Part shown: positions 3,123-44,185 of the stretch, one piece after another
How the letters are laid out: each line of letters starts with the position of its first letter
Numbering within the stretch: position 1 is the stretch's first letter
IMG/VR virus record: IMGVR_UViG_3300005683_000050
Coordinates: 21,669-85,668 of that record
Reading direction: 5' to 3' (one strand)
Length of the DNA stretch: 64,000 nt
Source: a virus
Taxonomy: Duplodnaviria > Heunggongvirae > Uroviricota > Caudoviricetes
The notes under the pieces: generated by a model
The model's database searches: none
What the model saw: only the letters and a program-made list of their open reading frames with translations
What the model was told of the DNA's origin: nothing
Program-made: the position numbers and the translations under genes

Positions 3123-3176
3123 TCGACCACGACATTTTCGACCACGACATTTTCGACCACGACATTTTCGACCACG
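3123..3176 (+). repeat. Tandem 15-bp repeat x4 (TTTTCGACCACGACA), member of the TTCGACCACG family
   Basis: Read directly from sequence. Confidence 0.95.
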
Positions 3177-3177
3177 A

Positions 3178-3218
3178 GAAAACAAAAAAGAGACCTAAAA
3201 ATTGGTCTCTTTTTTGTT
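3178..3218. terminator. Bidirectional intrinsic terminator
   Basis: AAAAAAGAGACC-loop-GGTCTCTTTTTT between converging units. Confidence 0.85.
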
Positions 3219-3330
3219 TGGTCTTACAGAGACAGTAAGACCCCATGCTACCACAACCGTGTTGCGTCTCGGCGGCACGGAGGATACCGCGATAGCTTTT
3301 CAAAGAAGGGGGTTGCAATTGCAATCTATG
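3180..3330 (-). ncRNA. Putative ~145-nt structured sRNA
   Basis: Minus-strand TTGACA-17-TATAAT at ~3364-3336; stems GCTATCGCGG/TTGTGGTAGC, CCGTG/CACGG, GGTCTTAC/GTAAGACC; ends at the terminator. Confidence 0.5.
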
Positions 3331-3360
3331 CTGTCATTATACCATAAAAACCAAATTATG

Positions 3361-3750
3361 TCAAGCTGCGTCGAGTTCCATTAGAATTTTTGGGTATTTG
3401 CTTGGCAGTCTGCGATACGACGCAATTACCTTTGTTGTTCTTGGTACAACGATTACGTAGTGTCCAGTTTTTGCGTGATAGTAATCTTCCATGCCCTTGT
3501 ACACGTAGCGCATATTGTAATATGGGTGTTCCAAGTGAAAACCACCGCGCGGTTTACCGCGATACCAATAGCTGTATGTATAAAAACACATCTCTAATTT
3601 CGCCAAGATAACTTGTCTAATCTGATTCATTCCGCCAGTGACGATAAAATCGTCTGTCGGAGTGTGAACCCATACAGTGGCAAATGGGTCGGCTCGTTTG
3701 AAGCTACCGATTGCATTATAGGGCAAATCAATCTTTGTGAGTTTGTTCAT
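3361..3750 (-). CDS. Hypothetical protein
   Basis: 129-aa ORF; its TGA forms part of the downstream TTGACA. Confidence 0.75.
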   Translation of the reverse strand: MNKLTKIDLPYNAIGSFKRADPFATVWVHTPTDDFIVTGGMNQIRQVILAKLEMCFYTYSYWYRGKPRGGFHLEHPYYNMRYVYKGMEDYYHAKTGHYVIVVPRTTKVIASYRRLPSKYPKILMELDAA

Positions 3751-3975
3751 TTTTGTTTTCTTTCACTCGCCTGACTTTGAGCTATCCATGGATGGTCTGC
3801 CGCGTCTTTTCTGTGTCTTTAGGGTAGGAGTATATTCCTACAGAAGACCTGACCGCAACGCGCTTTAGTCAGGCGAGTGAAAGACTGTCGGCAGATATGG
3901 CTTTAGATTTTTAGTGTGCCATGTACTGCCGCAGCTGCGACATTTAAGATAATTAGTTTGTGTCGCGTCTTTAAC
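3751..3975 (-). promoter_or_regulatory. Structured 5' leader (17-bp perfect inverted repeat, possible pseudoknot)
   Basis: 3760-3776 is the reverse complement of 3867-3883; promoter TTGACA-17-TACAAT lies in the 3' end of the methylase gene. Confidence 0.55.
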
Positions 3976-3986
3976 TACATTGTATC

Positions 3987-4604
3987 TCAAATCTTCTTTT
4001 TTGTCAAGCCCTTTTTGTTTCTGAATACCATCCAGTAGCAGTGGTATTTTCTGGCGTGTTTTTGCTTCAGGCTGCTATTGTAAATTCTGCCGCCAGTATA
4101 ATTAAGGATAAAAATATCCTCTGGAACAAGACCGCATTCCATAGCCCAATTGTGTACGTAGCAATGCGTCAGTGTGGTTCGGCTGTCAGTGTAGTCCTGA
4201 CACTTGAACGCCAAGATTCCACCACGCACCAGAACGCGCTCAAATTCTCTCAGCGCGGAGCGATACGTATATTCCAGCTCGGCAAAGTCATTGAACATGG
4301 TAAACCGCTTTGCCATGCGGTTTTCAAGTGTTTTGCCGTGAACGCCGAACATAAACGGAGGGTCAAAAATTACAGAGCTCACCGAATTGTCTGCTAGGGG
4401 CAATCCAAAGCGAATGTCGTTTTGGATGACGCCTTCGGCCATCGGGGTTTTATCCATACGGATTTTTGGCAACGAAAGCCCCTTGTAGAATTTTCCATGC
4501 GAGAAACACGGGTCTAGTTCAAACCAATCTCCGTCCAAGTACAGCGCAGAAATTGCTTTCATTATTTCCGCATCTGTATCCATAACGCTCTTTATCGCTG
4601 GCAT
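3987..4604 (-). CDS. DNA methyltransferase (amino-methylase, DPPF motif)
   Basis: LDPCFSHGKFY SAM-binding-like motif, SVIFDPPF catalytic motif, KCQD. Confidence 0.8.
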   Translation of the reverse strand: MPAIKSVMDTDAEIMKAISALYLDGDWFELDPCFSHGKFYKGLSLPKIRMDKTPMAEGVIQNDIRFGLPLADNSVSSVIFDPPFMFGVHGKTLENRMAKRFTMFNDFAELEYTYRSALREFERVLVRGGILAFKCQDYTDSRTTLTHCYVHNWAMECGLVPEDIFILNYTGGRIYNSSLKQKHARKYHCYWMVFRNKKGLTKKKI

Positions 4605-4707
4605 TCTACCCCCAGATTTTCTTGGCGACTTCCTCAATCACATAGGAAATAAGGATTAAGGTTGGAAATCCGATAATGTAAATAAAGTCAGACATGGAGC
4701 CTCCTGT

Positions 4708-5268
4708 TCAAAAATCCATCTGTACCGTCTCTAGCTTATCGAGACAGATAAACGTTGTGTTTCCAATACTCTCACGCATGGACTTGTGGTGGTGTCCAAA
4801 GACCCAAAATTTCGGACTCGCTTTGTTGTACATCAACTCAAGTCCCCACCGAGTCAAACTTTTATGCGTAATCCCGAAAAATTGTTCCGCAACAAACTGA
4901 GGGCAATCGTGCGAGACAACAATTTGCGCGCCGTGATAACTTTCGACCACGACATCCCACTGCGACCACGAGAGTTCTTCGTCTGCCCACCAGTCAATCC
5001 CAATGGTGCGGTACTTGGCATCAACGGAGTCTGCGCCACTCACAAAAAACAAACGCTCATCCATCGCGTACCCGAAATCGCCCAAGTATTCTGGCATTTT
5101 TCGACACAAGCTCGGGTTGTCGTGATTCCCGCGAATGAATCGAAAATTGTCTGGCAGGTTTTTGCAACTGGCAAACCCAACGCCCAAATCGCCAACCTGA
5201 ATCGTGTTGATTCCACAATTCGGTATTTGGGCTATCTTTCCGTGAACATCACCCAGAAATTGTATCAT
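4708..5268 (-). CDS. Calcineurin-like metallophosphoesterase
   Basis: GDVHG, GDLG, GNHD, SHDCP and GHHH motifs. Confidence 0.9.
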   Translation of the reverse strand: MIQFLGDVHGKIAQIPNCGINTIQVGDLGVGFASCKNLPDNFRFIRGNHDNPSLCRKMPEYLGDFGYAMDERLFFVSGADSVDAKYRTIGIDWWADEELSWSQWDVVVESYHGAQIVVSHDCPQFVAEQFFGITHKSLTRWGLELMYNKASPKFWVFGHHHKSMRESIGNTTFICLDKLETVQMDF

Positions 5269-5299
5269 GGCTTAATTGTAAATCAAATCCGTTGTTTTG

Positions 5300-5686
5300 T
5301 CAATATCCATACTGTAGGGCATAGGATTGCACTTCCTCTGCGCCAAAGAAATTCTCAAGTCCGCCTTGCGAAATTTCATTGACTATAGTTTCGTGCCATC
5401 CAAACACAGGAGCATAATCCGTCATCAGATTACCTCCTATATGCTCAAGGTGAATGACCCACGCCAGCTCGGTTAGTGTTGGACGATTCTTTTCAAAGAC
5501 CTTTAAGGCGAGCATCATTTGTACTTTAATTTCTAAATAACGCTCGATTGCTGAATCACTTAGGTATTCAGCAATGTTTTCATGCTCGTTCAACCACAAC
5601 TCAATGCATCTGCGAGCTGCGTCTGCAAAATCAACGAGAGATTTTTTTGTTGAATTTTTCATTTTGCTTTTTGACGCGCGCGGCAT
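5300..5686 (-). CDS. Hypothetical protein
   Basis: 128-aa ORF in the minus-strand cluster. Confidence 0.7.
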   Translation of the reverse strand: MPRASKSKMKNSTKKSLVDFADAARRCIELWLNEHENIAEYLSDSAIERYLEIKVQMMLALKVFEKNRPTLTELAWVIHLEHIGGNLMTDYAPVFGWHETIVNEISQGGLENFFGAEEVQSYALQYGY

Positions 5687-5826
5687 GACGTGCGTGTTTG
5701 CGGCTCATCGGTTTTTTTCCAGCGGTATGTTTCGACTTTGCAACAAGTCCCATCAGTTCCAGAATGGTCTTGTGTGTACCGTATTTCTTTGCCGCTTTTT
5801 GAATAGATTTGTTCTTGCCTTTCACT

Positions 5827-6036: not shown

Positions 6037-6046
6037 TGTTACTCCC

Positions 6047-6897: not shown

Positions 6898-7298
6898 TTG
6901 TCCTTATTATATTAGACAATCCTATTTTTGTCAAGATGGGCAGAGGGTTTACTTTATTGGGAGGTTTTTAAGGTTAACCCATTCAACCCCCCCTGCCCAC
7001 TATCACTATACATCAATCTGAGACTTTTGTCAAGCACCCGCCCTCAATGGGAGTGTAAGTTGCCGCATACTCAAATACATCAAAGCTGGCGACCTTTCCA
7101 CAAGTTTTGCAAGTCGCCCAGTAGCGAAATCCATATCCGTCGTTTTCTGAATGCAATGGCTTGTGCTTGAAATTTCCAAGAGCGTGACCGCATATCTCTG
7201 AGAATAACCTAATCTCTCTGCGGTCTTTTATGGTATTCGACTTCGAGCTCAGTGGAAAATTGCGGTATCTTTTTTTCATTTTTATGTACTTTCGACCA

Positions 7299-7598
7299 CT
7301 AGGTTTCGATACGCCCATCTACGACTTTGACGTATTTATCAAACGCTCCGCGCATCCACATGCGACCCACTGGGTTTTGAGTGTGCAAAACAATCTCTTT
7401 AATACCGAGCATATTACCGTTGAAGAAATTCTCTTCCAGAAACAAAACAAACCACCGCACGTCCTGTTGACCTAAATCATGGTCAAGATACAGCGTGTCA
7501 TAACGCCCAGTCGCAGCTTCAAACATGGCGTCTTCGACATTCCGTACAATAGTGCAGGAAAAGTTTGGTGTTCTTTCGTCGTCAACAAAGAGAATCAT
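7299..7598 (-). CDS. Cyclic-phosphate-processing receiver (REC-like) domain protein
   Basis: ILFVDDERTP...VRN...LYLDHDLG...IVLHTQNPVGR motif pattern. Confidence 0.8.
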   Translation of the reverse strand: MILFVDDERTPNFSCTIVRNVEDAMFEAATGRYDTLYLDHDLGQQDVRWFVLFLEENFFNGNMLGIKEIVLHTQNPVGRMWMRGAFDKYVKVVDGRIET

Positions 7599-13138: not shown

Positions 13139-15806
13139 ATGGACACAAAAAAACTCTTTGAATCTCTTTCCAAAATACTGGAAAGTATGGGCATGGATTC
13201 TATGTACTTTCAGAAACAGGGATATATCTTTGTCCCAGTCAAACGCAATTGGTGCAGAATTTGGTTTGGCGATAAATGGCATGTCTCTGTTGGATGTGAA
13301 GAGACCACCTTTGATGAGTTCAAATACGCGGTGCTTTACCTGTTTGCCACTATCCAAGAATTGGATATGATGTAATATGTACTACGAGAAATACGAAGAA
13401 AAATACAACAAACTCCCGCGCATGAAAAAACCGTCCATGCCCAGTCCGTCAGACTTTAGCAGGGCAGAATACCTAGAGGCACTTTTAGACTACGCCGAAG
13501 AGATTGGACGATACGAGAAAAACTGCACCGAACTCGAAAACGAAAAGATGCGCCTGTTCGATTCACTACACACCGACCTGCAATTCGGTCTTGGAACGCT
13601 TTATCTTCACAAAGAACCATTGCTGTGGAGTCTGGCGGTTGAATACGGCAAGGGAGATTTCAAAAGAGTGGAAGAATACTATACCGAAATGTATATCATG
13701 CTCTCTTGACAAAATTCGACAATTGGGGTACCATTTAGGTATGGATATTTATTCTCTAACCGAAGCTGTGTATCAAGGCGAGATTGACGGCGCAATCGTC
13801 AATCTCGCGCTTGCTATAGCAGACAGCGAAAAAAACTGCGACTAAAAAATGATTACCTCTCACGCCCTGTCACAAGCCAAAACGCGTATGTCCGCTATCG
13901 GATTTAGTCTTGACTTGCTCTATCAAGCCGATAGACTCGCAAATTGCCTGACCGAAGATACTGCCATTATCCTTGCAAAATCACTCAAACGCGTCAAAAC
14001 AAAGGATAAAAGCAACGGGTTCGTCCTCTACGCTATCGCTCGTAACCAATCTATCGTTACCGTTATGTGGCGCGAACACGACCAACCTCAAGATAGACTC
14101 AACGTCCATTCTATATTGTCTATTCTAGCTCCGCAAAATAGTAGACAAAAAGTCGCTAGCTTGACAAATCTTTAGAACACAGGTATAATGTGAGAACATT
14201 AACCGAATCAAATTAAGAATGCAAGCGACGGATTCAAGTCTCGCAAGTAAACTTTGAATCTCTGACGGACGAAGAACTAGTAGATGTCTTTGAACCTTGT
14301 GTTCTACTATGGGAATTTCGACACATGAACTACACTAAAGATAAGATTGGCGGAAAATTGCATAAAACAAAGGGATATACCTACAAGGGATACCCATACC
14401 GCAGACAGTGGACGATTACGCTGTGCGGCAAACAGTTTCCGTCTGACGAAGGAATCATTTCTACTGCCAACTTTAAGATTGCGCGACGCACAAGTTTTTT
14501 GTGCGGAAAATGCTTTAGGAAATCATGTATGCGTATCAACAGGAGCAATTAATGCTCGCACTGACAAACGGAATGTCATTCAGGAATTCAGCATATGCCT
14601 ATTTGTAAACCGATTAGATTATTGAGGGGGGATGCCGCGCTCGCGTTCTACTTTGCGAATATGCACGCAGAAAAGAACGAACTCGTGGCTCGACTGCTTG
14701 TTGTTGCGCCAGGCGGGAATCCTTTTGTTCTGACCAGAAAGCAGTGCAATGCGGTATGTGAGATAGCGAAAGAGTACGGGTGGAAACAATGAGCGACCAA
14801 ACATACTTACGCCAAAGATTCACGTCTGCTTTGCGGTGCGCCGTATGGTGTTCAATGCGGGGATATGACTACCGCGCCGCGTTGTTTCAGGCGCGGCGTC
14901 AAATGAATCGTTTATCTGAGCGCGGATTTGTGATATACGAACACGAAAAACAAATTGTTGAAATTTTGGAGAAACCAAATGTACGGACAAGTTTATGAAT
15001 CGAAAAATCACACAATCGTTCTGGTAACAAGGTGTGGCAAAGGGTTCGAGATTTCCACGAACGACATTCCAACATTCAATGCCCTTTGGCTTTACGGCGC
15101 ACGTTGGTTTTCGGAATCGGCAGAGGCACAGAAATGGTTGGACGAAAACGCAGAGAAGGTTGGACTGTCGAAGTGGAGTCGGGCAGATTACGCGTTGCAA
15201 TGGGGAGAACGTGAGGCTGCTGAATTCTGTAAAAAACACGGTTTGGACGAAAATGGAGTGTGGATATGTTAGAAACCTTTTTAAGAGCGGTGGATACACA
15301 GGGTGATGTTTACCTGCCCTATGTGCTAAGGGGTGATTTTACGCCAAGCGAGCGTGCTGTTATTGAGGAATTATTTGAGGGTCACATTCCGAAAACAATT
15401 GGTGCAATGTTCAACAACTGGATTGTTTATAAGCTTCCAAGTGGCTCATTCTATGCGTGGCGTGCTACGTGGGATACAGGGTTTACTGCTGAGACTGCGG
15501 ATGAAATGGCAGATAAAATTTCCAAATACTTTTCTCGCTAGTTTTTTCGACCACGGGCATTTCGACCACGGAGGTTTTATGACAGTTTACGATAAAATTA
15601 AAGCAGCGATTGAGTCTATGGACATGCTACCGCAAAGGGTTGTGCTACCGCAAGCAATGTTTGATGAATTCGCGCGCGATGTCGCGGCAACTGGTCACGC
15701 CCAAACTGTATGGGGAGTTCCAGTTGTCGCTGGGAATGTGTTGGAGATGCAGTTCGACCACGGGGTTTTCGACCACGAGGTTTTTGAATCTCGTGATAGG
15801 TTATAG
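13139..15806 (+). CDS. Cluster of small hypothetical genes (13139-13375, 13377-13709, 13741-13845, 13849-14175, 14325-14552, 14595-14792, 14789-14998, 14979-15272, 15260-15541, 15579-15806)
   Basis: Coupled or overlapping starts and stops, SD motifs or leaderless starts. Confidence 0.6.
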
Positions 15807-15996
15807 GAACGAATCTTATGTAACCTGGCGCGTTCGACCACGCGCTGCTTTGCATAATGTTTGTATGAAAAGCGCGCCTTATTCGGATTGGATTTGCCGA
15901 GATGCAACCTGCACGACTCATTTATAGCACAGATTTTTCGACTTGTCAAGAGGAACATTTGTTCTAAGCGGGGCAAGAGTTACCTAAGATTTTCAG

Positions 15997-16682: not shown

Positions 16683-16843
16683 TTGTTGGTGAGAAGCTGG
16701 TAAACTAGATAAGACAATCTGTGCCAGTGAATACGCGTTGAGTAGTTCGCGGCAGCGCACCTGCCACCGCATCCAGATTGGTCGGGGACGCGTAAAAAGT
16801 AAAGACCAATCAAAAAGCACTGTCTATATAGACAGTGCTTTTT
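16683..16843 (+). ncRNA. Putative ~160-nt structured RNA ending in a palindromic terminator
   Basis: TTGACA-17-TATACT upstream; stems GTTGGT/ACCAAT, CAATCTG/CAGATTG, GGCAG/CTGCC; 32-bp perfect palindrome 16812-16843. Confidence 0.55.
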
Positions 16844-17354
16844 TGTATGCTACGACCACGAGGTATTCGACCACGGGCTTTTTGACCATGCGACCACGGG
16901 GGTTTGGACGCGCGGTTACACAAGGCGACCCGCCGCGCGCGACTTTACATAAGGCTGGTTACATAAGACTGATTCACTGCCGCGAGTTACATAAGAACTT
17001 GGATGTACACGGCGATAGCCGCGCGTGTCGCGGCTACACATCGGCAGAGAAAATTCTTTCTTCACGCTTTCACCCTATCACAAACCAAGCAGTTTGTCAA
17101 ATAGAACATATGTTCTATTTTTGTGCTGGGTCGGACTCCTGCCCTCTTGCGTTTTTCACGCTCGATTATAGTATAGCAGGAGTCCCATTTTTTGTCAAGT
17201 GGGGTTACATAAGATTTTTGTGCTGGTGCGGACTCCTGTCCTCCCCCACTCGTCGTGGTCAATTGTAGTATAGCGCACTGTGAAAATTTTGTCAATAGCA
17301 AAACCCCCACAAGTCTCGCTGTGGGGGTTATTCTACCGAATTATAGGATTACTT

Positions 17355-17422
17355 AGCGAATGGCAGGACTCGAACCCGCATCTTTGACTAACGCAACGCT
17401 TTGCCTATTTAGATACACTCGC
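17355..17422 (-). tRNA. tRNA-like element with shortened anticodon arm (loop centre TTA); probably not a canonical decoder
   Basis: 7-bp acceptor GCGAGTG/CATTCGC; T-arm GCGGG-TTCGAGT-CCTGC; D-loop with GG; anticodon stem only TTG/CAA; 68 nt; no encoded CCA. Confidence 0.6.
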
Positions 17423-17603
17423 CCATTTTTTACCGCCATTGCTCGGTTAACACTTTGGCGAACCTTTCGGAAAAATGAATCCCCAGAGTCAAGGTCTGCC
17501 CTGAGTCTGACTATTCATTGACATCATCATATCACGGATGTTTTCTTTTGTCAAGTGGTTGACAAAACTTGTTGAATTTGTTATAATTCTTTCAAGGAGA
17601 AAC

Positions 17604-19341: not shown

Positions 19342-20654
19342 ATGAAAATCTACGTGGTGGTGAGCTATACGGCTCGTGGAGACTCTGTGATACGAAAGGT
19401 GTCTGCGTCTAAACGTAGTATCAAAGCATTTCTTCTCAAAATTGAATGGCTCGGCTCTTTTTGGATTAACGTTGAGACATGGCAGGACGGCGCGTTGTCC
19501 AACATTGAAATTATCAATGCTGAAAACTATCAAGAATGGGGGAAACATGGAAATCATTCAGTTCGCGGGAATTGATTGGAAGCACGGCACGAGCGCAATT
19601 CAAGACTTCTTTGAAACAAAAATTGACGGGATTCAGTTCATTGTCTCGAAAAACACACACCCCTTGAATCTGGGGGATTATCCCAGAGGATGGTTTGCGA
19701 TGTATGTTGACCGCAAGGGGAATTGGTGTCCTCTGAACACACGGATGACACACCTTGACGGAACAATTGAATGTGACCCGTTTTTTGAATATACCGACGA
19801 TGCGGATGCAGACATACCCAAATGTTTGATGTTTGCAATCGCGACGATGGGCATTCGGTGCGCCACGGAGAAACAAAATGAAATTTGATGCTGAAACGTA
19901 TTTTAATACAGCGAAGGGTACACGGAGTTGAATTTCCGAAAAACGCAACGATTCTACATAAAGAGGCGGGCTGGTCTATCATCGCCTATATTGGCGATGA
20001 CTATGTTACACTGGATTACATTGTTGGCAAGTTCACGGTTGACTTTTCCTGGTGTGACCAATTGGTGTATGACGGGAAAAACCCAATTCATGCAAAAGCA
20101 AAGTTCTATGCAGGGGTTGAGGAAATGACTTCGACCACGAGGCTTTCGACCACGGACAATTGACACGATTCGACCACAGGACTTGTGTGTGGGGGGCGGA
20201 AAAAGCGTAGTACGCGTTTTTTCGTGTACCGTCTTGAATGTATCACGTTTCTGACTTTTTGTCAAGTGGGGTTACATAAGATTTAGACGCTGGGTCGGAC
20301 TCCTGCCCTCCTCTGCTCATCGCAGTCAACTACATTGTAGCATCGGAACGTATTTTTGTCAAGTGTATTGACAAAAGACGGGGTGAGTGTTAATATGATA
20401 AAGAAAGGGGAAATCAAATGATTACCAATCAAACAGTAGGATATGAACCGCGTTGGATTTTCAATCCCGCAGACATTGCGAATTCGCAGTATCTGCGCGC
20501 GTGTGATACTGATGACAACCTATTCTTGTTCGATACCGCCCTTGACGCACAGATGGCTGGTATGGATTGGTGCGTTGGTATGGACAAGAATCTGTATCCG
20601 CAAGAAAATTTGGTGGTTGCAAAAATCACAGTTGAGTACATTCTTCTGAATTGA
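19342..20654 (+). CDS. Small hypothetical genes (19342-19575, 19547-19888, 19888-20163, 20418-20654)
   Basis: Promoter, SD and ORF architecture. Confidence 0.65.
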
Positions 20655-26367: not shown

Positions 26368-26967
26368 AACTAGATTGCTCTGTATCGCGCGGTATATGGT
26401 CTCGCGCTGAATTTAGCGAGTGCTTATCGTCGTTTAAGAACGGCACGATTATCGGCAATCCGAAATACCGAGATAGCGTCGGAAGTGAGGGGGTATGGCG
26501 CGATATAAACACATACCCCTACCGCAATTATTCGACTGTCTATTAAGACAGCCATCAATCCGAGATTGTTTTCGACCACGAGGATTTCGACCACGGGACT
26601 TTTGTCCTGTGGTTTTTTTGTTGATTCGACCACGAGGATTTCGACCACGGGGGTATGGTGGCGCGCAAAGAAGATGCCGACCTGAGTTACCCAAGAACGG
26701 CAGGTATGGCAAGGTCGGCGCATTATGTCAAGTTGCCGCGCGGAGATGCGCGGAAATAGACAAGGCGCGCGCCTTGTTTCCACGTTGGAATGTAGCACGT
26801 TTCTGACTTTTTGTCAAGTGAGGTTACATAAGATTTTTTTGCTGGGTTGGACTCCTGCCCTCCTGCGCTCTTCGCGCTCGGTCATAGTATCGCGCTAACG
26901 CATACCTTTGTCAAGTGGTGCAGAATTGCCTATTGACAAAAAAACGCGCTTAGACTATAATACCGAC

Positions 26968-27621
26968 ATGACCACAAAAAACATGTTCGGATACGGAAAT
27001 TCAAAGCTGGTGCATTTGCAAAATCGCGTGGGTAAAAAGGTTGCGACGTTTGACCTGCTCGCGGGTCATACCTGCCCGATGGCAAGCGACTGTAACGTGC
27101 GTGTCATTATCAGTAAAGGACACCGCCGATTGAAAAAGTTAGGCAAATGGGCTTGCTATGCGGCAAAAGCGGAATTGGTGTATACCGCTACATACCGCTT
27201 GCACAAAATCAATAAAACGCGCACTTTGCGCGATACGTTTGTAAAGCGCGCGATTCGCGAAATTGAAAAAAACCGCGTCGAGATTATGCGGATTCACAGT
27301 TCGGGAGATTTTTACTCTTGGGAGTATTTCCAAAAGTGGTACGCAATCGCGCAAGCGTTGCCGCATGTGTCGTTTTTTGGTTATACCAAGCAAGCGACCT
27401 TTGTAAAATGGTTACTTGCACACCCTCTGCCGAATTTGAAAATTGTTTACTCGCACGGCGGATTACTTGACAATTTCGCGGCAGCTCACAATTTGCCGAC
27501 GTGTTACGTGAAAACGCAAGAGGGTCAGTACCCCGAAATTCCTGTAGCTTGCGGCGCGGTACATAGCGACGATTACGAACACGTTTTAGCGCAGCATGAT
27601 TTTGTAATCGAGTTCCACTAG
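26968..27621 (+). CDS. Phage Gp88-like protein (copy 1), leaderless
   Basis: GNSKL...TFDLLAGHTCPMASDC...CYAAK...RIHSSGDFY; TTGACA-17-TATAAT-6-ATG. Confidence 0.8.
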   Translation: MTTKNMFGYGNSKLVHLQNRVGKKVATFDLLAGHTCPMASDCNVRVIISKGHRRLKKLGKWACYAAKAELVYTATYRLHKINKTRTLRDTFVKRAIREIEKNRVEIMRIHSSGDFYSWEYFQKWYAIAQALPHVSFFGYTKQATFVKWLLAHPLPNLKIVYSHGGLLDNFAAAHNLPTCYVKTQEGQYPEIPVACGAVHSDDYEHVLAQHDFVIEFH

Positions 27622-27997
27622 GGAGGGGGGGGACAATCCCCTCCCTAGCTTAGAACGATGCGCTATAATACAAAAGACGTAGCAAGGGGCAGCGAGCTTT
27701 GATAGAACCGACTAGGCACAGAGCATAAAATCCTGTGGACGCGAAAGGTTCGTAGCCGACCACGCGGGGAAAACGCGGTAAAGTGGGCGAAAGCACTGGT
27801 GCGAGTGTGAGTATCCCACAACCTTTTTTGTTTCGGTGTATGTTACATATAAGAACATGTGTTCTAATTGGATGCTGGGTTGGACTCCTGCCCTCTTACG
27901 CTATCCGCGTTCAGTTATAGTATCGCGCTATTTTCGTTTTTTGTCAAGGGACAGTATTGCACTTGACAAAAAACTCAGCAAGGTGTATCATTCAGCC

Positions 27998-30699
27998 ATG
28001 AATAACAAACATATAGCGCGAGTGTCTCGCGCACACCGCGCCAAAGCTGTAACCGATTTTATCAATTTTCAATTCGGGTGTGATAATATCACTGCCGAGA
28101 TGCAGCCTGTTTTCCAGAATGCCGATGAGTACGAAATCTTTGCGAATTGTCGGCGGGGCGATGTGCGTATGTTGAAAATTGCTATCTGTGCCTTTTTGCG
28201 CGGCGCGGAATGGCAAGAAAGTCGCGTTTGACAAACTTTTGACCTTGTGGTATATTGAACGTGTAGGACAAAATCAACCAAAAGGGGTGTGCTGTGAAAG
28301 AGTATTCTACCAAAACCAAGTCGGTGGTTGTTACTCTGTTTGAATTCGCTCTCAGCGTGCTTTTGAAGCTCAAATCGCGCGACGCGAATCGCGTTGCCGA
28401 AATCAAGGCACAGATTGCCGCGCTGAACAAAGAGCTCGCGAATGTGACTAAGGAATACAGTGATACGCAAAGCAAATTGACGATTGGTCTCATTCCGTTT
28501 GTTGAGCAGTGGGCGCGTGAAAATGAAGGCAGTTACGTCGGCAAGAATGGCAGGGTCAAAATTGTGCGTCCGTATTTGCGGCGCGTGTGGAGTGCTGACA
28601 AGATGGATGAAATCTTGGAACAAAACCCGTACTTGCTCCCCGTTTTGCAAGGCGCGTTTTCTGTGACACCTGTTGAGATTCAAGTCGAATTGCAAGTGTA
28701 AGACAATGCCCGCAAGGGCATTTTTTTACGTTCCGATAGAACATATGTTCTACTGGTTACATAAGAACTCTATGTCGGAAAATCGCAGTTTCAAACTGAA
28801 AATCCGTAGAACATTTGTTCCATTTCTAGGACTTGGGCCTTTTTGCTATATCCCACCGAATTTTGACTTATCGCCTGTCTGGATAGACAGTTGACAAAAA
28901 AAATGATTTGACGTATAATACAGACATGCAAATCAAAAAACATTTCCGAGCTGCCGATTTTACGGCGACCCAATTCGGTACGGCGCAAGAAAAGGCGGAT
29001 TTCGCAAATCACTTTATCTACTTTGTCGAAAGTGGATGCCCGTATCGTTTGTTTCACAAATGGTTTTACGGGCGACTGTCCATGTGTTTTTGTCATATCG
29101 CCCACTACAACAAAGACGGATTTTATAGTGTGTGGTTTTCGTCGGACGCTCATAAAAATTTCATGCAACACACTCTTTCTTTTGTCCCGTTTGGCGACCC
29201 GTATTATACGTATTGCGATGTTGAACATGCCCTGATAAAGTATTTCAAACGTCACCCGATTCGATAACGGTGGGCATTGCCCACCATCGGCGCGTGAATC
29301 TCCATAAAGGGAGACACGACAGCGAATTAACGCGAATACTGTACAGTATGACTTGCCCGTAAGCGAGTCTGGGGTGAATTGACACCCGCGCCGTCAATCT
29401 TTTATCGCTTGACAAATCCAGCGAGCTAGTGTATCATACATTCACAGGTGAAAAAGTGAAACGAGTCAAATGTAAAAGTGGACTGTCTGGACGCCAGCAA
29501 AAGCTGCAACGCATGTATCGTGGCAAAAGAGAGTTCATTTCATACACTGAAATCTACAACATTCATGGTCGTCTTGGTTTCAAGTCAGCAGAACGGTGTT
29601 GGACTGCCAATCCGTTAGTTGAATACTCTATAGACCCGTCCGATTTTCGTCGGGTGCGCGAGGTGAAAACTATCTGTCATTCGACGCTTGTGTGAAGTAC
29701 GGCGAAACCGATGCCGAGTTTACCGTAGAATGGTCAATGAGTAAAAACAAAACTCCGTACCGCGCGGGAAAGACGCTTTGGCAGCAATGGGGATTTTTTC
29801 TTCAGCCTGTCAGCGTTGTTGATTGCAGATTGACAAATTCTTGGAAATAGGGTAGAATACAGATACGGAAACACAACAAAGCTTTAACGGATGGCATTCT
29901 GGCGGACACGGTGTAAACGACATTAATGGACACTGAACAGCTTGTAGAACTTGAATTGTTCAAAGATATGCGTTGCCCGAAATGTTTCGGGCGCAATCTG
30001 ACCACGCGCGGAATCTTCAAAGACGTTACGCATGTTTGTATGGATTGCGGGAAAGAATGTACTGACGAAGAATCCTTGCGCGCTGGTCGGGAATTTCGAG
30101 AACGGAATAAAGAATAGATTCGACCACGGCACTTTCGACCACGAGCATTCACACACGCGCGGCAGATAGGGGATAGTGGATACCTGCCGCGCGAAGGCGC
30201 GGACAGGCGCGGAACGACCTGTCACAAAAAGTATAGCACGCTGTTCTTTTTTTGTCAATTTCGGTTACATAAGATTTTTGGGCTGGGTTGGACTCCTGCC
30301 CTCCTCCGCTTCGCGGTCAATTGTAGTATAGCGCTATTCTGATTTTTTGTCAAGGGATGGGCGATACTTGACAAATTGAAAGGGAAGGTGTATCATTTGA
30401 GTATGAATAAACATTCACCATATTTTGACCAGGAAAGTCCGATTGCGGAGATTGTTGGCATGATTGCGGATTTAGATGTATCCCGTCCTTATGAGCTATA
30501 CGCGACGGCGGTATTCAAGTGCAAACAGGGGTACTTGGTCGTTGGCGTTAGTGGATGCTCTTGTTGGCCTGACAGTGGCGGTACGTCTCAAGAATTTTGC
30601 CGCACGCGCGCCGATGTGGACAAACAATTGCGCGGGGAATGGCGCGAGCTTTTGACGCTTTGCCAACAGCGCAATTGGAAAATCGCTGTTGACAAATAA
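27998..30699 (+). CDS. Small hypothetical genes (27998-28231, 28294-28701, 28926-29267, 29456-29695, 29926-30117, 30403-30699)
   Basis: Own promoters; starts corrected to leaderless ATG where applicable. Confidence 0.65.
29270..29400 (+). ncRNA. Run of consecutive hairpins, putative structured RNA or 3' UTR
   Basis: GGTGGGC/GCCCACC, TCTCC/GGGAGA, ATACTGTACAGTAT palindrome, GGGTG/CACCC. Confidence 0.4.
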
Positions 30700-33593: not shown

Positions 33594-36198
33594 ATGGAAA
33601 GTATCAATCAAAGTATGTCAAGGCAAACCTCTAAAATTCAAGACATGGAGGCACGAATGTATAATACACTCAAAGCACTCGAATCGTTACTGAATCTTGT
33701 CTTTGCGATGGGATACAACCAAATCGTAGTAAGAATCAAAGATGCGCCGAATCATGTTTGTCTTTCGGTTTGGCGCGGGCGCGCGGAATGGATGCTACGC
33801 ATTGGTCAAATCAAAGACCAAAGCTGGTATGTGTATTACATTGACAACGGCGGTATTGTCATTCTCTTTGAAGGGTATGTTTTCGCTGACGCGCTCTGCG
33901 TGTTTTTCAAGAAATTGCACGAGATTGCAGATTGACAAAGTGTGGTGACTGGTGTATTATACAGACATGAAAAACATTACCTACCGCGAATACAATCTGA
34001 CGTTTTTCCAGGTTCCAAGTGGGTTTTATATCCACTGCGAAAGTATTGACGAAGAGTTTTATACGTCAATCTTCGACACATTGCAAGGCGCAATTGACGA
34101 AATGATGTGCTTGTGCGATGAACCGTACAAGGGGTGATATATATGCAACTTATCAAATGGAATGCTCTTAACCAGAAACAACGCGATGCGGTCAGGGTGT
34201 CGTTTCCGTATTGGTATCTCGACCAAACGGCAAAAACGATTGAAGGATGGGCAGAAAAACATGCGTTTTGGTTTACCAATCGCGGGAAACTGGCGCAAAA
34301 GCGCAGTGCTGAACCTTTGTCTTCAGCCAACCATTACGAAAAATGCGATACCAAAATCAAAATTCAACTGCACCACGAAAGCGGCAACGACGTACAAAGA
34401 CGCATTGACGCTCTGTATACGTTTCTCGGCAGCGATTATGGATATGGATTACAATTGTTTTTGGATGCGTTCACAGTGAACCGCAATAACGTTCCGATTG
34501 AAATTCGCGGACTGTTTAACGGGTATTTGGAAAACTATATTTATATTCACGGAACACTGACTGTCCGCATTTACTCGATTTGAAAAGTGTAATCAAAAAA
34601 CCGTACAGCAATGTACGGTTTTTTCGACCACGAGCCTTTCGACCACGAGCCTTTCGACCACGAGCCTTTCGACCACGAGCCTTTGTACGTGTGTGTGGTG
34701 GGAATGGACACAGAACGACCCACCGCGCCTACGCGCGGTGGGTCACTAAAAATCTCACCATGAAAATTATCTTACGCCGTTCTTTTTTTGTCAAGTGTTG
34801 GTTACACAAGATTTTTTTGCTGGGTTGGACTCCTGCCCTCCTGCGCTCTTCGCGCTCGGTCATAGTATCGCGCTATTCACGTTTTTTGTCAAGTGGGGAG
34901 TTTCCTATTGACAAAAGTAAGAATCAATCATATAATACAGACATGGAACAAAAACTTATCGAATCACTTGCGGAGAATCTGTCGGCATATAACGCCGAGT
35001 GTGTGAATGATGGGGACGGTCATTATACCCTATTCTTGAATGGTGTACCAGTGATAGGGTACTCTGAATCAAAATCGTCTTGGCGTTGCTACAATGCCAA
35101 CGGTGTATCAGTAGGGCGATATTCTTGTTCGGACGCTCTGACTCACCTTGCGAGTCATTTGTAGCTTGACAAAACATTTGAGTCGTGTTATATTGAATGC
35201 AAGACGGACAAAAAACAAGGGAGGAAAAATGCCGAAAAATCCGATGGGCAAAACGGTCAAAAAGGAAAACGCGTATGCGGTGTATCGCGGCGGCGGATTC
35301 GATTACTTGGTGCTGAAAACGTACCAATCCGCCGAAAAAGAAGATGCGAATCCGTATGCGCGATGGTTTCTCGCGACGCGCTCTCCGTATACGTACGGCA
35401 GTTGGGAGCTGGGCGATGGATACGTGCGCGACGTGAAACGCAGTGCCTATCGCTTGTTGGATACCGACGCGGACGCGTTTCTCAAACGCGAATTTGGCGA
35501 CAAGGCAGGCATTACCAAAGTAACCGCGTGAGACAAAAAGGGGTAGCCGAAAAGCTGCCCCTTTTTTATTTACCCCAAATAGAACATATGTTCTGCGGGT
35601 TACATAAGACATCGGTGTAGAACATCCGTTCTATTTTTGTGCTGGGTTGGACTCCTGCCCTCCTGCGCTCTTCGCGCTCAACGGTAGTATCGCAGGATTA
35701 CTGATTTTTGTCAATATCTGTGTGGCAGATTGACAAACTTTATTAGATTGTATATAATAGCATCATAGCGAAAGGATGAAAAAAATGAAAATCAAAATTG
35801 TTGCAATGGGTGGTCAAGAGGATGCCTCAGCGCGTGATTATTACGCTCACTGTATGGCAATGATTGGAATTGAGGGTGAGGTAGAAGAAATTGCAAGGGG
35901 TGGTTTGGTTGGGATTTGGCAATGCCGCATGGAAAAATGTACTGACCCGACGCTTGGGAATGTCATTAGTCCGTTGGTCTATATTGACAGTGAAAAATCT
36001 ACAGAAACGCGCCCGTGTGGTTACTTGTTTGCACAAATTGTTAGTGGGGGCCCGCGCGATTTGTTGCGCGCAAATCGAGTCGGTGCGTCAAATTATCGTG
36101 TATGGTATCATGGCGATGAATACTCTTCTTGGATTGTGTCAGAGCAAGAGTTAATAGAAGCATACCCGATACTCGCGCGGTCTCTTGGTCTCTCTTGA
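33594..36198 (+). CDS. Small hypothetical genes (33594-33935, 33967-34137, 34143-34583, 34943-35164, 35229-35531, 35776-36198)
   Basis: Promoter-linked; 33967 and 34943 leaderless. Confidence 0.7.
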
Positions 36199-39771: not shown

Positions 39772-39976
39772 AAAAAGAAAACCGCGATATAATTCGCGGT
39801 TTTTTCATTTTTCGACCACGGCATTTTCGACCACGAGACTTCGACCACGGCACTTTCGACCACGGGGATATCGCGCGCGGATAGGGCGCGCGGATAGGGC
39901 GCGCGGCATGACATACCGCACAATTTTTGTGTGTATCCCAAATATCATACCGCCCAAGAGAAATTTTGTCAAGTAT

Positions 39977-41054
39977 GGTTACATAAGACGGCGGCATAGA
40001 ACATCCGTTCTATTTTGACGCTGGCTGCCGCTCCTGCCCTCCTCCGCGTTTGCGGTCAAATGTAGTATCGCGCTAACGCTCACTTTTGTCAAGTAGAACA
40101 TCTGTTCTATTGCAAGTTACATAAGACAATAGAACATCCGTTCCTCTTGACAAATTTTATCACTTAACCTATAATAGGCACATGAGCAAAAAAATGTTCG
40201 GTACACAGAATAGCAAGTTGACACATTTGCAATCGCGGCTAGGGAAAAAAGTCGCGACGTTTGACCTGTTGGCGGGGCATACATGCCCTATGGCAAATTT
40301 ATGTCATGCGCGCGTGGTAGTTCGCAATGGTCACAAGAAAATTCTCAAACTTGGAAAATTCTTGTGTTACGCGGCAAAGGCCGAAGCTGTATATCCGTCC
40401 GTATACAAATTGCATAAAATCAATAAGACGCGCAGCTTGCGCGCAACGTTTGTCAGTCGCGCTATCCGCGAAATTGTCAAAAACAATTTCGAGATTGTAC
40501 GCATTCACTCAAGCGGTGATTTTTACGATTTTGCGTACTTTCAAAAATGGTATACAATCGCGCAAGCATTGCCAAATGTGACTTTTTTTGGATACACCAA
40601 ACAAGCAACGTTTGCAAATTGGCTTATCGCTCACCCGTTACCAAACTTGAAAATTGTGTATAGTCACGGCGGACTACTTGATGACTATGCGGCAGCTCAC
40701 AATCTGCCTACATGCTACGTTGAAACACAAGAGGGCCAGTATCCCAACATTCCCCTAGCATGTGATGCCGTACATAGTGACGACTTTGAGTACGTTATGG
40801 CGCAAGTGACATTCAAGATTGATTTTCACTAAAACGCGCCGAGTCAATGAAAAACCTACGGGAAACAAGTTAAATCCCTGTAGGTTTTTTGTTCTATTCG
40901 TCAGAACATTTGTTCTATCGGTTACATAAGACGGCGGCATAGAACATCCGTTCTATTTTGACGCTGGCTGCCGCTCCTGCCCTCCTCCGCGTTTGCGGTC
41001 AAATGTAGTATCGCGCTAACGCTCACCTTTGTCAAGTAGAACATCTGTTCTATT
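39977..41054 (+). repeat. 135-bp direct repeats (39977-40111 and 40920-41054, 1 mismatch) flanking Gp88-like copy 2
   Basis: Direct comparison of the sequence. Confidence 0.9.
40182..40832 (+). CDS. Phage Gp88-like protein (copy 2), leaderless
   Basis: Clearly similar to 26968-27621: NSKL...TFDLLAGHTCPMANLC...CYAAKAE...RIHSSGDFY. Confidence 0.8.
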   Translation: MSKKMFGTQNSKLTHLQSRLGKKVATFDLLAGHTCPMANLCHARVVVRNGHKKILKLGKFLCYAAKAEAVYPSVYKLHKINKTRSLRATFVSRAIREIVKNNFEIVRIHSSGDFYDFAYFQKWYTIAQALPNVTFFGYTKQATFANWLIAHPLPNLKIVYSHGGLLDDYAAAHNLPTCYVETQEGQYPNIPLACDAVHSDDFEYVMAQVTFKIDFH

Positions 41055-41088
41055 TGACAAATTTCTGAGACCGTGCTATTATATGGTC

Positions 41089-43423
41089 ATGGAAAACAAA
41101 ATGACACACCCAAACAAGAATGCCGCAATTAACGCCGCGCGCTTCGCTAGCACTTTTGACGGTGTAGCGTACGCTGTAGTAGCATTGATGGGCGGAATTT
41201 TCGAAATTTGCAAGGTGTCGGAATTGCGCGATTTTAGCATGGTCATAGTCGCGTACAAGTACGGGCGGATATTCAATCTGAATTGAGCTCTTGACAAATT
41301 TCCCTATCCGCGCTATAATGCTCTTGTAGGCAAAATTCACAAAAGGGGTGAAACGTGATTATCAAAGTCGGCAAGAAAACGGGTGTTGACCTCAGCACGG
41401 GCAAGGTAGTACTGTTGGGCAAGGGCAAGGGCAAGTAGGGGCTAACGCCCCTTTTTTTTGATTCGCAATAGAACATCTGTTCCACGCGGTTACATAAGAA
41501 TTTTTGAATAGTTGGCAAAGCGGGCGGTTACACAAGATTTTAGATTCAGAAAACTACGCTTTATAGTTAGGATTCCATAGAACATTTGTTCCATTTCTAG
41601 GACTTGGGCCTTTTTGGCGGTTTGCGATAAAATCAAAAAAGCGGGATACTTGACAAAAAAAACTATTCCGCGTATAATGAGTATATGGAAAACAAGATAA
41701 CAAAAATCAACGAATTGATGAAAGCATTAATGCCCCAAATTTACATTGATGCATACAGTAAAGATGCCAAAGATTTTTTATATTTCGGGTTTCTCGAACG
41801 CCCTGGACAATTACTCTTGGCTGTTATCCAAGAGACATGGATTGTAGAATTCAAGGATTGGTATAGTGGGGAGATTCTGCAAATTTACCAGGGGACGGAC
41901 GCTGAACGCGCTTTTAGTTTGTTTTATGAACGGGCGCGTTTAATCAAGGCGATACAAGAATAAAAAAGGGGAAAAAACAATGCCTATCGAAATCATTGTC
42001 GCAATCGGACTCGCTGTAGCATTCAGTGTCTCGTTGACTCTCACATTTTCGGCAAAACGTCAACGGGCTGTCAAGTACGGCAAGAATCGGTACGAACGCC
42101 TATCGCGGTGATAGGCATTTTTGGTGGTTACATAAGACGGCAGTATAGAACATCCGTTCTATTTTAACGCTGGCTGCCGCTCCTGCCCTCTTGCGGTATC
42201 CCCGCTCACCTACATTATCGCAGATTCACACAATTTTGTCAAGTAGAACATTTGTTCTGGTCGGTTACATAAGACGGGCGTACAAAAAAAAACCCCTTGC
42301 GGGGCTACATTTCGATATTTCGCCAAAAAAATATAAAGGCAGTACCAAAAACGACGGCGAAAATCAGGGTAGGAATAATGTTTTCCATTGTATGCGCTCC
42401 CTTGTGAATGCTTGCTTGCCTATGTTTTAAGTATAGGTCAAATGAAGAAATTTGTCAACAGTCAAAAATGACTCGATTCTACCTATTGACAAAAACGAAA
42501 TTTTGCGTATAATAGACTATAGAGGGGTGAAAAATGTCAACAGAATTCTCTTTTGTCACTGGTAACAATGAACTCCATGAATTTGCCTTGCAATCTTGCG
42601 GTTGGCAATTTTCGTTCACACGCCCGCTTGACAAAACCGCCGCGCCGTGATACAATGCTCTTGTAGGCAAACTTCACAGGGAGATGAAAAATGACACACA
42701 GTGAAGCAATCGCACAAGCGCAGAATGTGTATCGAGCAATCCACATGTACGTTGTCAAATTTCCAGATGGCACATTTGGAGTTGCAGAGGGGTACAAGGT
42801 CACAAGCGATGGGCGCGCTGAAGTTTACGGAAAAAATGGGCGCGCGATGGAGCATTACTTTCGCACGCAATACTGTGGGCGTTTTGATGAATCTGGTACA
42901 TACAAATTTGGGACGGATTGACCAAAGGGGAGCGTATGGACACAAAACAAATGCTTGAAAAAGCGATGGAATACAATGGCGCAAAACGCGCGAAACTGAT
43001 TTTGCTCGCGGTGTGTCTCGATGTGAACAACGAGCTCACTAACGCTGAACGTGCCGAAGCTTTGCTGAATGCGTACAACGCTCTCCAATTTGAAGAAGAC
43101 CCTGTAAATTTGGAAATTTGACAAAAAAACAAGACCGTGCTATACTACTTTTGTCGGCGGAGATTTACGAAAAGTACCTTAATCTCTGCCGACAACTCCC
43201 AAAAAGGATAAACACCAAAATGACAGAAACATGGCACGTAGTAAAATACGCAAGCGACGGTACGGTACTTGCAAGATTCGAGACTGAAAATTTGAATGAA
43301 CGCGCCCTGCAAGAATGGTGTGATGAGCAAAAAGGTAGAAAAGTCGTTGCAACAGCCGAAGGAAATTTCGTCACGTTTGAATACAAAATCCCAACTTGGC
43401 GCAACCAAGAATTCGATTTCTAA
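41089..43423 (+). CDS. Small hypothetical genes and micropeptides (41089-41286, 41355-41438, 41685-41963, 41980-42111, 42691-42921, 42936-43121, 43220-43423)
   Basis: Promoter/SD or leaderless architecture. Confidence 0.6.
42305..42388 (-). CDS. 27-aa hydrophobic membrane micropeptide
   Basis: Minus TTGACA-17-TATACT, AAGGGAG SD; MENIIPTLIFAVVFGTAFIFFWRNIEM. Confidence 0.6.
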   Translation of the reverse strand: MENIIPTLIFAVVFGTAFIFFWRNIEM

Positions 43424-44185
43424 AAAAGAAAACCGCGAATTATATCGCGGTTTTCTCATTTTTCGACCACGAGCCTTTCGACCACGAGGATTCGACCACG
43501 AGCCTTTCGACCACGGGGTATTGCTCGGCACAGATTTTACCCAAATTTTGCCCGTCTTGGGTAACTCCGCCCCGATTTTCCGAACTTTTGTTCTAAAATG
43601 ACGTTTTTTGCCTATAAAATAGGCATTTTTTCGCCTTTGACTCTATAATTATACCCCAAAACGAGATTTTTGTCAATTCCACTTTACATAACGCGCGATA
43701 GGTTACATAAGAATATGCACCAGGTAGGCGCACAATAGAACGAGTTACATAAGAATTTTAGCACTCTATCCGACAGGGTGCTAAAAAGTTACATAAGAAT
43801 AGGCGCAATTTTACGTTTTCTTTCAAATTCTTCAGTTACACAAGAATTTTTTTCCGAAAAATGCGCTTTTATAATTATAAATCCATAGAACATTTGTTCA
43901 CATTCTAGGACTTGGGCCTTTTGGCGGTTTGCGAAAATTCGCAAACCGCGCCGCGTAGAAAATTTGTTCTATGTCAGTGCAGAGTGCGCGAAGCATAGAA
44001 CGTCCGTTCTACTCGCAGGTCGTTGGGTGTTAGAACGGATGTTCGGTTACATAAGACGCGGCAGGTCGCGTTTCGAGCGTTAGAACGGACGTTCTAATTT
44101 CGTGGTTACATAAGATTGCGCTCACAAGCCTAGCGCGGTTACATAAGACGGACGTACAAAAAAAATGCCCTTGCGGGCATTTTTT
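43424..44185. other. Gene-free, repeat-rich convergence region (terminator, TTCGACCACG x4, GTTACATAAGA array, LexA boxes, AT-rich tract)
   Basis: Read directly; the rightward and leftward early arms meet here. Confidence 0.8.

What the first reader, a model, noticed from the sequence alone, without database searches (positions are those of the whole stretch)
3123..43514. Polar TTCGACCACG repeats in 14-15-bp tandem clusters, most read by a dedicated antisense promoter
Seen: about 30 copies in 10 clusters (3123, 15546, 15753, 16851, 20131, 26572, 30119, 34623, 39811, 43462), 2-4 per cluster, all in the same orientation, at 3' ends of plus-strand units. Eight clusters have a minus-strand TTGACA-17-(-10) promoter roughly 80-250 bp to their right (-35 at 15944, 17095, 20260, 26812, 30253, 34789, 39967, 43671). 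At 16812, 34600, 39780 and 43430 a bidirectional terminator lies just beyond the repeats, defining short transcripts ending in (CGUGGUCGAAA)n. The repeats have invaded ORF ends (15579-15806 ends FDHGVFDHE; 19888-20163 ends STTRLSTTD). Established analogies: mycobacteriophage L5 stoperators (asymmetric, polar), plasmid iterons, Chi-like polar sites. Inference: either a second repeat-bearing sRNA family or polar binding sites for a phage protein.
Basis: partly seen in the sequence, partly recalled or inferred. Interest (0 to 1): 0.75.

Follow-up and report, generated by a model that had tools for sequence, protein, structure and literature searches.

The report
Paired one-way repeats behind phage promoters
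An uncultured 150-kb phage and three relatives carry a short DNA word in fixed pairs, always on one strand and mostly just behind dedicated backward-pointing promoters where opposing transcription meets, so it looks like a conserved, undescribed traffic signal for RNA polymerase whose reader is still unknown.

Summary
Confirmed: 31 exact TTCGACCACG in the window (0.12 expected), 34:0 by strand in the 149.7-kb genome, a tRNA-rich siphovirus probably infecting Anaerolineae. New here: the unit is a pair, CGTGGTCG-N7-CGTGGTCG (15-bp period). Twenty of 22 arrays in four phage genomes hold 2, 4 or 6 copies, and all six 14-bp intervals fall between pairs. Most arrays lie 70-170 nt behind a dedicated leftward promoter (P2), near the stop codon or terminator of a convergent gene. 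The DNA between P2 and the repeats is non-homologous, so the promoter-repeat link itself appears selected. One four-copy array (3122) lies beyond its terminator, and no RNA fold is selected, which weakens a simple sRNA-sponge reading. Chi/KOPS, CRISPR-repeat, Y-RNA and TIGR-guide readings were tested and not supported. Best guess (0.38): a site read during leftward transcription by a dimeric, probably phage-encoded factor that decides stop versus read-through (stoperator- or nut-like). No reader and no RNA data were found. The scan has no earlier record of this sequence on other DNA; one-strand motifs of this general kind were noted in unrelated phages.

The parts
3122..3176 (-). Array of 4 copies (15-15-15); lies just past the terminator of the leftward P3364 unit and in the 3' UTR of plus gene 2444-3118
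3184..3216 (.). Bidirectional terminator-like hairpin between promoter 3364 and the array
3336..3364 (-). Perfect sigma70-type promoter (TTGACA-17-TATAAT)
4942..4970 (-). Pair (19-bp period) inside minus-strand metallophosphoesterase ORF 4708-5268
7291..7300 (-). Single variant copy overlapping the stop codon of the cREC ORF 7299-7598
15546..15570 (-). Pair at the junction of two plus-strand genes, overlapping the SD of ORF 15579
15753..15842 (-). Pair (15753/15768, inside the 3' end of ORF 15579-15806) plus single copy at 15833
15921..15949 (-). P2 promoter with an AGAAC-N4-GTTCT box just upstream
16812..16843 (.). Bidirectional terminator
16851..16898 (-). Pair plus one further copy 23 bp away (a decayed copy lies between)
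17072..17100 (-). P2 promoter (weak -10)
20130..20178 (-). Pair overlapping the 3' end of ORF 19888-20163, plus a variant copy 24 bp away
20237..20265 (-). P2 promoter preceded by A-box TCTTATGTAAC
26571..26649 (-). Two pairs (26571/26586 and 26625/26640); copy 26586 forms one arm of a plus-strand terminator at 26589-26614
26789..26817 (-). P2 promoter preceded by A-box
27757..27764 (-). Single 8-bp core 183 nt behind P1 promoter 27947
30119..30143 (-). Pair 2 bp after the stop of plus ORF 29926-30117
30230..30258 (-). P2 promoter preceded by A-box
34595..34624 (.). Bidirectional terminator abutting the array
34623..34677 (-). Array of 4 copies (15-15-15, identical spacers)
34766..34794 (-). 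P2 promoter preceded by A-box variant
39776..39805 (.). Bidirectional terminator
39811..39864 (-). Array of 4 copies (15-14-15)
39944..39972 (-). P2 promoter preceded by A-box
43427..43456 (.). Bidirectional terminator at the main convergence point
43462..43515 (-). Array of 4 copies (15-14-15)
43648..43676 (-). Perfect P2 promoter, downstream of a cluster of A-boxes

Best explanation
The functional unit is a 23-bp asymmetric direct-repeat pair, CGTGGTCG-N7-CGTGGTCG on the minus strand. It is read while a leftward-moving host RNA polymerase passes it. A dimeric or two-domain factor, probably phage-encoded, binds the two cores (in nascent RNA or in DNA) and decides whether leftward transcription stops or continues where it meets rightward early genes. 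It works like a stoperator or nut/RAT element, but for one genome direction only. Shown: sequence, pair geometry, polarity, promoter link, junction placement and conservation. Inferred: that P2 is active, that a protein binds, and that elongation is affected. Unresolved: stop versus read-through.
For: Pair geometry: 20 of 22 distinct arrays are even-numbered, the within-pair period is 15 bp in all cassette pairs, and all six 14-bp intervals fall between pairs (L030:701 duplicates L150:14518). One-mismatch variants of the core show no strand bias (26:27), so the core is read strictly. Promoter link: all 7 upstream sRNA (B) cassettes with P2 carry an array, none of the 10 without P2 does (Fisher about 5e-5, one search gave 3e-5 with 11; copies are not independent). 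In relatives every cassette array examined follows an A-box plus P2. The DNA between P2 and the repeats is non-homologous. Only 16% of the region lies within 250 nt of a leftward promoter, while most arrays do. Placement: 14 of 17 arrays start within 60 bp of the stop codon of a rightward gene, and seven sit 6-25 nt before a hairpin terminator. Arrays in leftward operons sit at start codons, stop codons or promoter junctions, as L5 stoperators do (PMC9283540). The flanked tandem motif was found in 1 of 301 Anaerolineae genomes, in coding DNA, which points to a phage-encoded reader.
Against: No reader was identified; the only HTH-type candidate found is a sigma70-region-4 protein with no link to the motif. 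A pure stop signal does not explain why P2 exists, since its RNA bodies are unrelated. A pure read-through signal does not explain the array beyond the terminator at 3122. Known stoperators flip with local transcription, and these never occur in that orientation as arrays in rightward units. A 15-bp period puts DNA-bound subunits on opposite helix faces, unusual for head-to-tail dimers (own knowledge).
Confidence: 0.38

Rival explanations
1. RNA sponge. P2 makes short non-coding RNAs whose paired CCGUGGUCGAA motifs titrate a dimeric RNA-binding protein, and the pairs beside ribosome-binding sites are its mRNA targets (CsrB/CsrA logic with a new motif).
For: A conserved promoter plus conserved 3' repeats with unrelated bodies. 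Seven arrays end at a terminator. Pairs flank the SD or start codon at genome 11314 and at L019:2147 in sense orientation. The B sRNA family is also almost all on one strand, so polarity alone does not exclude an RNA.
Against: The four perfect copies at 3122 lie past the terminator. About half the arrays have no terminator. The pair at 15546 overlaps an SD in antisense orientation. The cores are predicted mostly paired, with no common structure, and pairs fold less stably than shuffled motifs. Rigid 15-nt spacing is more than CsrA-type binders need (own knowledge).
Confidence: 0.25
2. Strand-specific DNA-processing site that local transcription helps to expose: a programmed nick as in T5, tf and phiKMV, or a priming or loading site as in the transcription-activated T7 origin.
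For: Phage tf has 14 nicks at a 9-mer present on one strand only, in a genome with convergent transcription (PMC3517423). Here the word is 34:0 whatever the local gene direction, and flanking genes invert in relatives while the arrays do not. Clusters recur every 3-6 kb across the rightward block. The core contains TGGTC, a T7 primase site (own knowledge), and the phage has a Cys4 zinc-finger primase-like protein and HNH genes.
Against: Nick sites are not known to need pairs or promoters. The primase-like protein lacks the second Asp of the DxD motif in all four sequences aligned, and a 12-nt consensus is longer than DnaG-type primases read. GC-rich repeats are unlike unwinding elements.
Confidence: 0.2
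3. Host-derived REP fragment or neutral slippage product, carried along with an amplified promoter cassette, or a mimic of a host REP-binding site.
For: The candidate host family has a GTAG-type REP whose arm and loop contain CGACCAC(A/G)AG and which forms tandem arrays of period 15-18. Some phage arrays have identical spacers, a sign of recent slippage.
Against: The phage copies lack the GTAG foot and the hairpin, and no RAYT was found in the phage. The dominant host variant has A where the phage has G. Core and spacing are kept while spacers and bodies diverge across phages at 67-72% protein identity. Pairs are also kept inside genes.
Confidence: 0.1
4. Host Chi or KOPS motif accumulated by the phage in one orientation near a genome end, as in phage LLS.
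For: An 8-mer with a TGGT core, polar, and concentrated in about a third of the genome; LLS and MD8 show that pattern (PMC12315714).
Against: Not over-represented in 396 kb of the best host candidate (21 observed, 19-23 expected) and not polar there, nor in long contigs of a second family member (56:55, mixed within contigs). Chi does not need promoters or fixed pairs.
Confidence: 0.04

Closest known systems
Cluster A mycobacteriophage operators/stoperators (L5, TipsytheTRex; PMC9283540)
   Same: More than 20 asymmetric short sites, at gene junctions and sometimes in genes, with a strict core and a fixed orientation relative to a moving RNA polymerase.
   Different: Stoperators are single 13-mers that follow local transcription in a temperate phage with a known repressor. 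These are fixed 15-bp pairs on one genome strand only, tied to their own promoter, in a phage where no repressor or integrase was found.
Localized nick sites of phages tf/LUZ24, T5 and phiKMV (PMC3517423)
   Same: A phage-specific short word on one strand only, independent of gene direction, function unclear.
   Different: Those are dispersed single sites with no reported promoter link or pairing; nicking could not be tested here.
Lambdoid nut sites and RAT/ANTAR-type antiterminator elements (own knowledge)
   Same: Polar element between a promoter and a terminator, plausibly bound by a dimeric factor; in L030:5141 the last repeat is the 5' arm of the terminator.
   Different: No boxA and no selected hairpin; one array lies after the terminator; no N, Nun or ANTAR-like protein was found.
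CsrB/RsmZ/CrcZ-type protein-sponge sRNAs (own knowledge)
   Same: Promoter, non-coding body, repeated short motif and terminator; similar motifs near some ribosome-binding sites.
   Different: Not a GGA or CA motif, not displayed in loops, rigidly paired, and often without a terminator.
Chi-rich lambdoid phages LLS and MD8 (PMC12315714)
   Same: Polar 8-mer clustered in part of the genome.
   Different: The word is neither enriched nor skewed in the candidate host family; it is paired and promoter-linked.
GTAG-type REP elements, reported also in Chloroflexi (PMC3733652)
   Same: Shared CGACCAC(R)AG core; tandem period about 15 in some host MAGs; location at gene ends.
   Different: No palindrome, no GTAG foot, no RAYT, and strict genome-wide polarity.

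Membership tests
Stoperator (cluster A mycobacteriophage) | More than 20 asymmetric sites with a strict consensus, at gene junctions | tested here: met
Stoperator (cluster A mycobacteriophage) | Orientation follows the local direction of transcription | tested here: not met
   All arrays are on one strand, in rightward and leftward regions alike; no array in the opposite orientation
Stoperator (cluster A mycobacteriophage) | Cognate immunity repressor in a temperate phage | tested here: inconclusive
   No repressor or integrase family among the ORFs scanned against Pfam, only a sigma70-r4 HTH; gene calling was approximate
Stoperator (cluster A mycobacteriophage) | Orientation-dependent block of elongation | not testable with these tools
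   needs a reporter assay
Chi / KOPS | Over-represented in the host chromosome | tested here: not met
   21 observed against 19-23 expected in 396 kb of G001; host is inferred, not proven
Chi / KOPS | Strand-skewed along host replichores | tested here: not met
   mixed orientation within long contigs
T5/tf-type nick site | Short word on one strand only, regardless of gene direction | tested here: met
   34:0
T5/tf-type nick site | Physical nick in virion DNA | not testable with these tools
CsrB-type sponge sRNA | Own promoter and terminator around a non-coding repeat-bearing unit | tested here: inconclusive
   promoter in all cassettes, terminator in about half, one array outside its unit
CsrB-type sponge sRNA | Motif displayed single-stranded or in hairpin loops | tested here: not met
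   cores predicted mostly paired with no common fold; no selection for folding; prediction only
Bacterial Y RNA (YrlA/Yrn1) | GNCGAAN0-1G motif, tRNA-like domain and a TROVE protein nearby (PMC4201824) | tested here: not met
   19 of 64 units match the motif; no Rfam hit; TROVE absent from the phage and from 11 of 11 host-family genomes, present in 1 of 34 in the order
REP/RAYT | GTAG-footed palindrome and a Y1 transposase | tested here: not met
   no palindrome in the phage copies; PF01797 not found in the phage
Plasmid or phage iterons | 17-22-bp helically phased repeats beside an AT-rich unwinding element at one origin | tested here: not met
   8-12-bp cores with a 14-15-bp period at more than ten loci; only the 43462 array neighbours an AT-rich tract
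CRISPR-repeat mimic (Racr) or TIGR target | Match to a host CRISPR repeat or to the phage's own guide spacers | tested here: not met
   no CRISPR-period array containing GACCAC seen in 34 genomes; the guide-like units do not contain the word by inspection

The most novel reading that the evidence does not exclude
P2 plus the paired repeat is a factor-dependent processivity switch. Once the phage factor is made, a relay of leftward polymerases launched every 3-6 kb reads through the bidirectional terminators across the 32-kb rightward early block. This would either shut those genes off by head-on transcription or pull the genome into the cell from an end near 47 kb. It would be a one-direction, promoter-relay control system not described in phages. 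The genome end and entry direction are not established.
Probability: 0.12. Interest if true: 0.85.

Novelty: new variant of a known kind. Interest (0 to 1): 0.55.

Why it matters
Multi-copy polar words in phage genomes are known (stoperators, nick sites, Chi), but I found no description of one built as a rigid pair and coupled to its own antisense promoter. It is conserved in a lineage of large phages of Anaerolineae, a group with almost no characterised phages. If it controls elongation at convergent junctions, it shows a new way for a phage with dozens of near-perfect host promoters to manage polymerase traffic. The 23-bp site is defined sharply enough to be used directly as pull-down bait.

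Tried and rejected
IMG/VR pattern hits were unrelated low-complexity repeats without the cassette, mostly coding. Capsid relatives in IMG/VR are small phages without the motif. Distant GP88 carriers (33-49% identity) lack all cassette motifs, and one at 59% (L024) has A, B and LexA boxes but no array in 6.4 kb. No match in cultured phage records or Rfam. The apparent host enrichment against the tool's reversed-pattern control vanished under Markov models; the control word contains AGCT and is probably a poor control. Pairing of the repeat with the 5' end of the B sRNA was dropped because that end is a covarying hairpin, not a fixed sequence. A self-pairing YCGUGG hairpin was rejected (mean probability 0.1; weaker than 83% of shuffles). 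An apparent G.U-wobble substitution pattern came partly from my own regex, and the unbiased recount is too small to use. A type III restriction orientation effect was not supported: only CCGTGG looked depleted, it belongs to a generally avoided CCNNGG class, and it is not depleted in relatives. tRNA 3'-end pairing (UGGU with ACCA) was considered but has no structural support. No direct-repeat iterons were found in the replication-initiator-like gene. Structure and complex prediction were not run, as no candidate reader justified them.


Full report
Setting. The window is bases 21669-85668 of a 149,668-bp virus record. It has 46 tRNA genes, an HK97-type head module and a long tail operon; no DNA polymerase or integrase was seen in the families scanned. 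The host is probably an Anaerolineae bacterium. A 576-aa protein is 62% identical over its shared domain to a protein of Chloroflexi UTCFX4, which is encoded in MAG DTUCFX8, here G001. The phage and that MAG avoid largely the same palindromes. The early region is rich in AGAAC-N4-GTTCT boxes, the LexA box type of Gram-positive bacteria and Chloroflexi (own knowledge). The host remains an inference.

Observation. TTCGACCACG occurs 31 times in the window against 0.12 expected and 34:0 by strand in the genome. The invariant part is the 8-mer CGACCACG, 43:2 by strand. Its one-mismatch variants show no strand bias, 26:27. On the minus strand the consensus over 64 array units is (C)Y-CGTGGTCG-AA, with a pyrimidine at -1 in every array unit. 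Some details needed correction: the 3122 array lies beyond its terminator, several arrays have no terminator, and further copies lie in or between minus-strand genes.

The cassette. On the minus strand the recurring layout is: promoter P1, a purine-rich small RNA (the B family, a separate finding), an A-box or LexA box just upstream of the next -35, promoter P2, 70-170 nt of hairpin-rich body, the repeats, and in about half the cases a bidirectional terminator. Of 17 B cassettes in the window, the 7 with P2 all carry an array and the 10 without P2 carry none (Fisher about 5e-5, with shared ancestry as a caveat). The bodies of 14 P2 units show only chance-level local similarity. Promoter and repeats are therefore retained together while the DNA between them is not.

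Relatives. Homologs of the two GP88 genes led to three other phage genomes at 67-72% protein identity: ERZ7245xx (L017, L023, L030 and L150 are one phage), SRR20958190 (L018) and SRR34753058/SRR3175742x (L019-L021). All have the same cassette and word. Individual genes are inverted relative to the repeats in different phages, yet arrays stay on one strand in every contig. In the ERZ phage three B cassettes are inverted and none has an array, while 4 of the 6 in the usual orientation do. More distant GP88 carriers, IMG/VR and cultured phages gave nothing.

The unit is a pair. Among 22 distinct arrays, 12 have two copies, 7 have four and 1 has six; the two with three are a pair plus a copy 23-24 bp away. 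Within pairs the period is 15 bp, except for three pairs outside cassettes (17, 19, 21). All six 14-bp intervals lie between pairs (15-14-15 and 15-14-15-14-15), in three phages and with different spacer sequences. The 23-bp pattern occurs 17 times in the window and never in shuffles. Spacing is kept while spacer sequence drifts, which points to a reader with two binding surfaces. It is not a selected RNA hairpin: pairs fold less stably than 83% of shuffled motifs, and the self-pairing helix has a mean probability of 0.1.

Placement. Fourteen of 17 arrays checked begin within 60 bp of the stop codon of a rightward gene. Seven sit 6-25 nt before a terminator stem, and the 3122 array abuts one from the other side. 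In leftward operons, copies fall at a start codon (genome 11314), a stop codon (7291), before an SD (L019:2147) or before a promoter (genome 126260), and one pair is inside a gene (4942). Across the rightward block most clusters recur every 3-6 kb.

Host-motif readings. The core is neither enriched nor polar in the candidate host family, which disfavours Chi and KOPS. The flanked tandem was found once in 301 Anaerolineae genomes, in coding DNA. No CRISPR-period array contained it. The Y-RNA motif of PMC4201824 fits only 19 of 64 units, and TROVE is nearly absent from the host order. One resemblance remains: a host REP family shares CGACCAC(R)AG and forms tandem arrays of period 15-18 in some MAGs. 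The phage copies lack the palindrome and the phage has no RAYT. I hold this as a lead that may be chance.

Mechanism. Three facts need explaining together: a rigid pair, a retained promoter about 70-170 nt upstream in the same direction, and placement where leftward and rightward transcription meet. An element read during leftward transcription, deciding stop or read-through at those junctions, covers all three best (0.38). Neither version is clean: a stop signal leaves P2 without a purpose, and a read-through signal does not fit the 3122 array. An RNA sponge explains P2 and the pairs near ribosome-binding sites, but not 3122, the missing terminators or the antisense pair at 15546 (0.25). No reader protein was identified.

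Verdict. A real, clade-conserved and apparently undescribed cis element. It works like known multi-copy asymmetric phage sites but fails a defining test for stoperators, Chi/KOPS, iterons, REPs and Y RNAs; membership among nick sites could not be tested. I class it as a new variant of a known kind, interest 0.55.

Noticed in passing
window 15997-44943, minus strand: 17 or more P1-driven B elements (5' hairpin plus GAGGGCAGGAG tail) are conserved in relatives, including L024, which lacks the paired repeat; a few are inverted in the ERZ phage.
   Followed up: partly
window 15.8-47.1 kb: A-box TCTTATGTAAC, 28 copies, mostly one strand. It sits about 5 bp upstream of the P2 -35, a typical activator or repressor position, and also in either orientation inside P2 bodies, so it is probably a DNA site.
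   Followed up: partly
window 44186-47150: Near-identical promoter-plus-gene modules pointing leftwards, ending near 47.2 kb just after the tail operon; a possible genome end or pre-early region.
   Followed up: no
window 3185-3330, minus strand: A perfect promoter (3364) drives about 145 nt with two strong hairpins and a terminator and no obvious ORF; candidate structured ncRNA.
   Followed up: no
window 17355-17422, minus strand: tRNA-like element found by Rfam (39.6 bits) but missed by ARAGORN, with its own promoter at 17554.
   Followed up: no
whole genome: Extreme palindrome avoidance: GATC 0 (about 456 expected per strand), CCGG 0, GGWCC 0 and many 6-mers near zero, largely shared with MAG G001, alongside several methyltransferase genes.
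   Followed up: partly
window arrays versus relatives: Position -1 of the repeat is T in 22 of 35 copies here but C in all 31 copies counted in relatives (one array counted twice); T removes a CCNNGG site, a class this genome otherwise avoids.
   Followed up: partly
L013:3323-4243 (genome 108323-109243), minus strand: Primase-like protein with a Cys4 zinc finger whose TOPRIM domain has D-P instead of DxD in all four sequences aligned; it may be inactive or use a shifted acid.
   Followed up: partly
L015:1597-1950 (genome 146597-146950), minus strand: Stand-alone sigma70 region-4 HTH protein, a candidate regulator of the many TTGACA promoters.
   Followed up: partly
G008 (L070, L073, L076), G009:C110, G012 (L066), G321:C190: Anaerolineae MAGs carry polar tandem expansions of half of a GTAG-type REP (GGGCGACCAC unit, period 15-18 bp).
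   Followed up: partly
window 26908-27621 and 40182-40832: Two GP88 (PF17338) paralogs, 74% identical, each directly beside a cassette; the ERZ phage also has two.
   Followed up: no
L011:13472-14626, minus strand: WGR-PARP gene in the accessory block, with a single repeat core about 250 nt into it.
   Followed up: no
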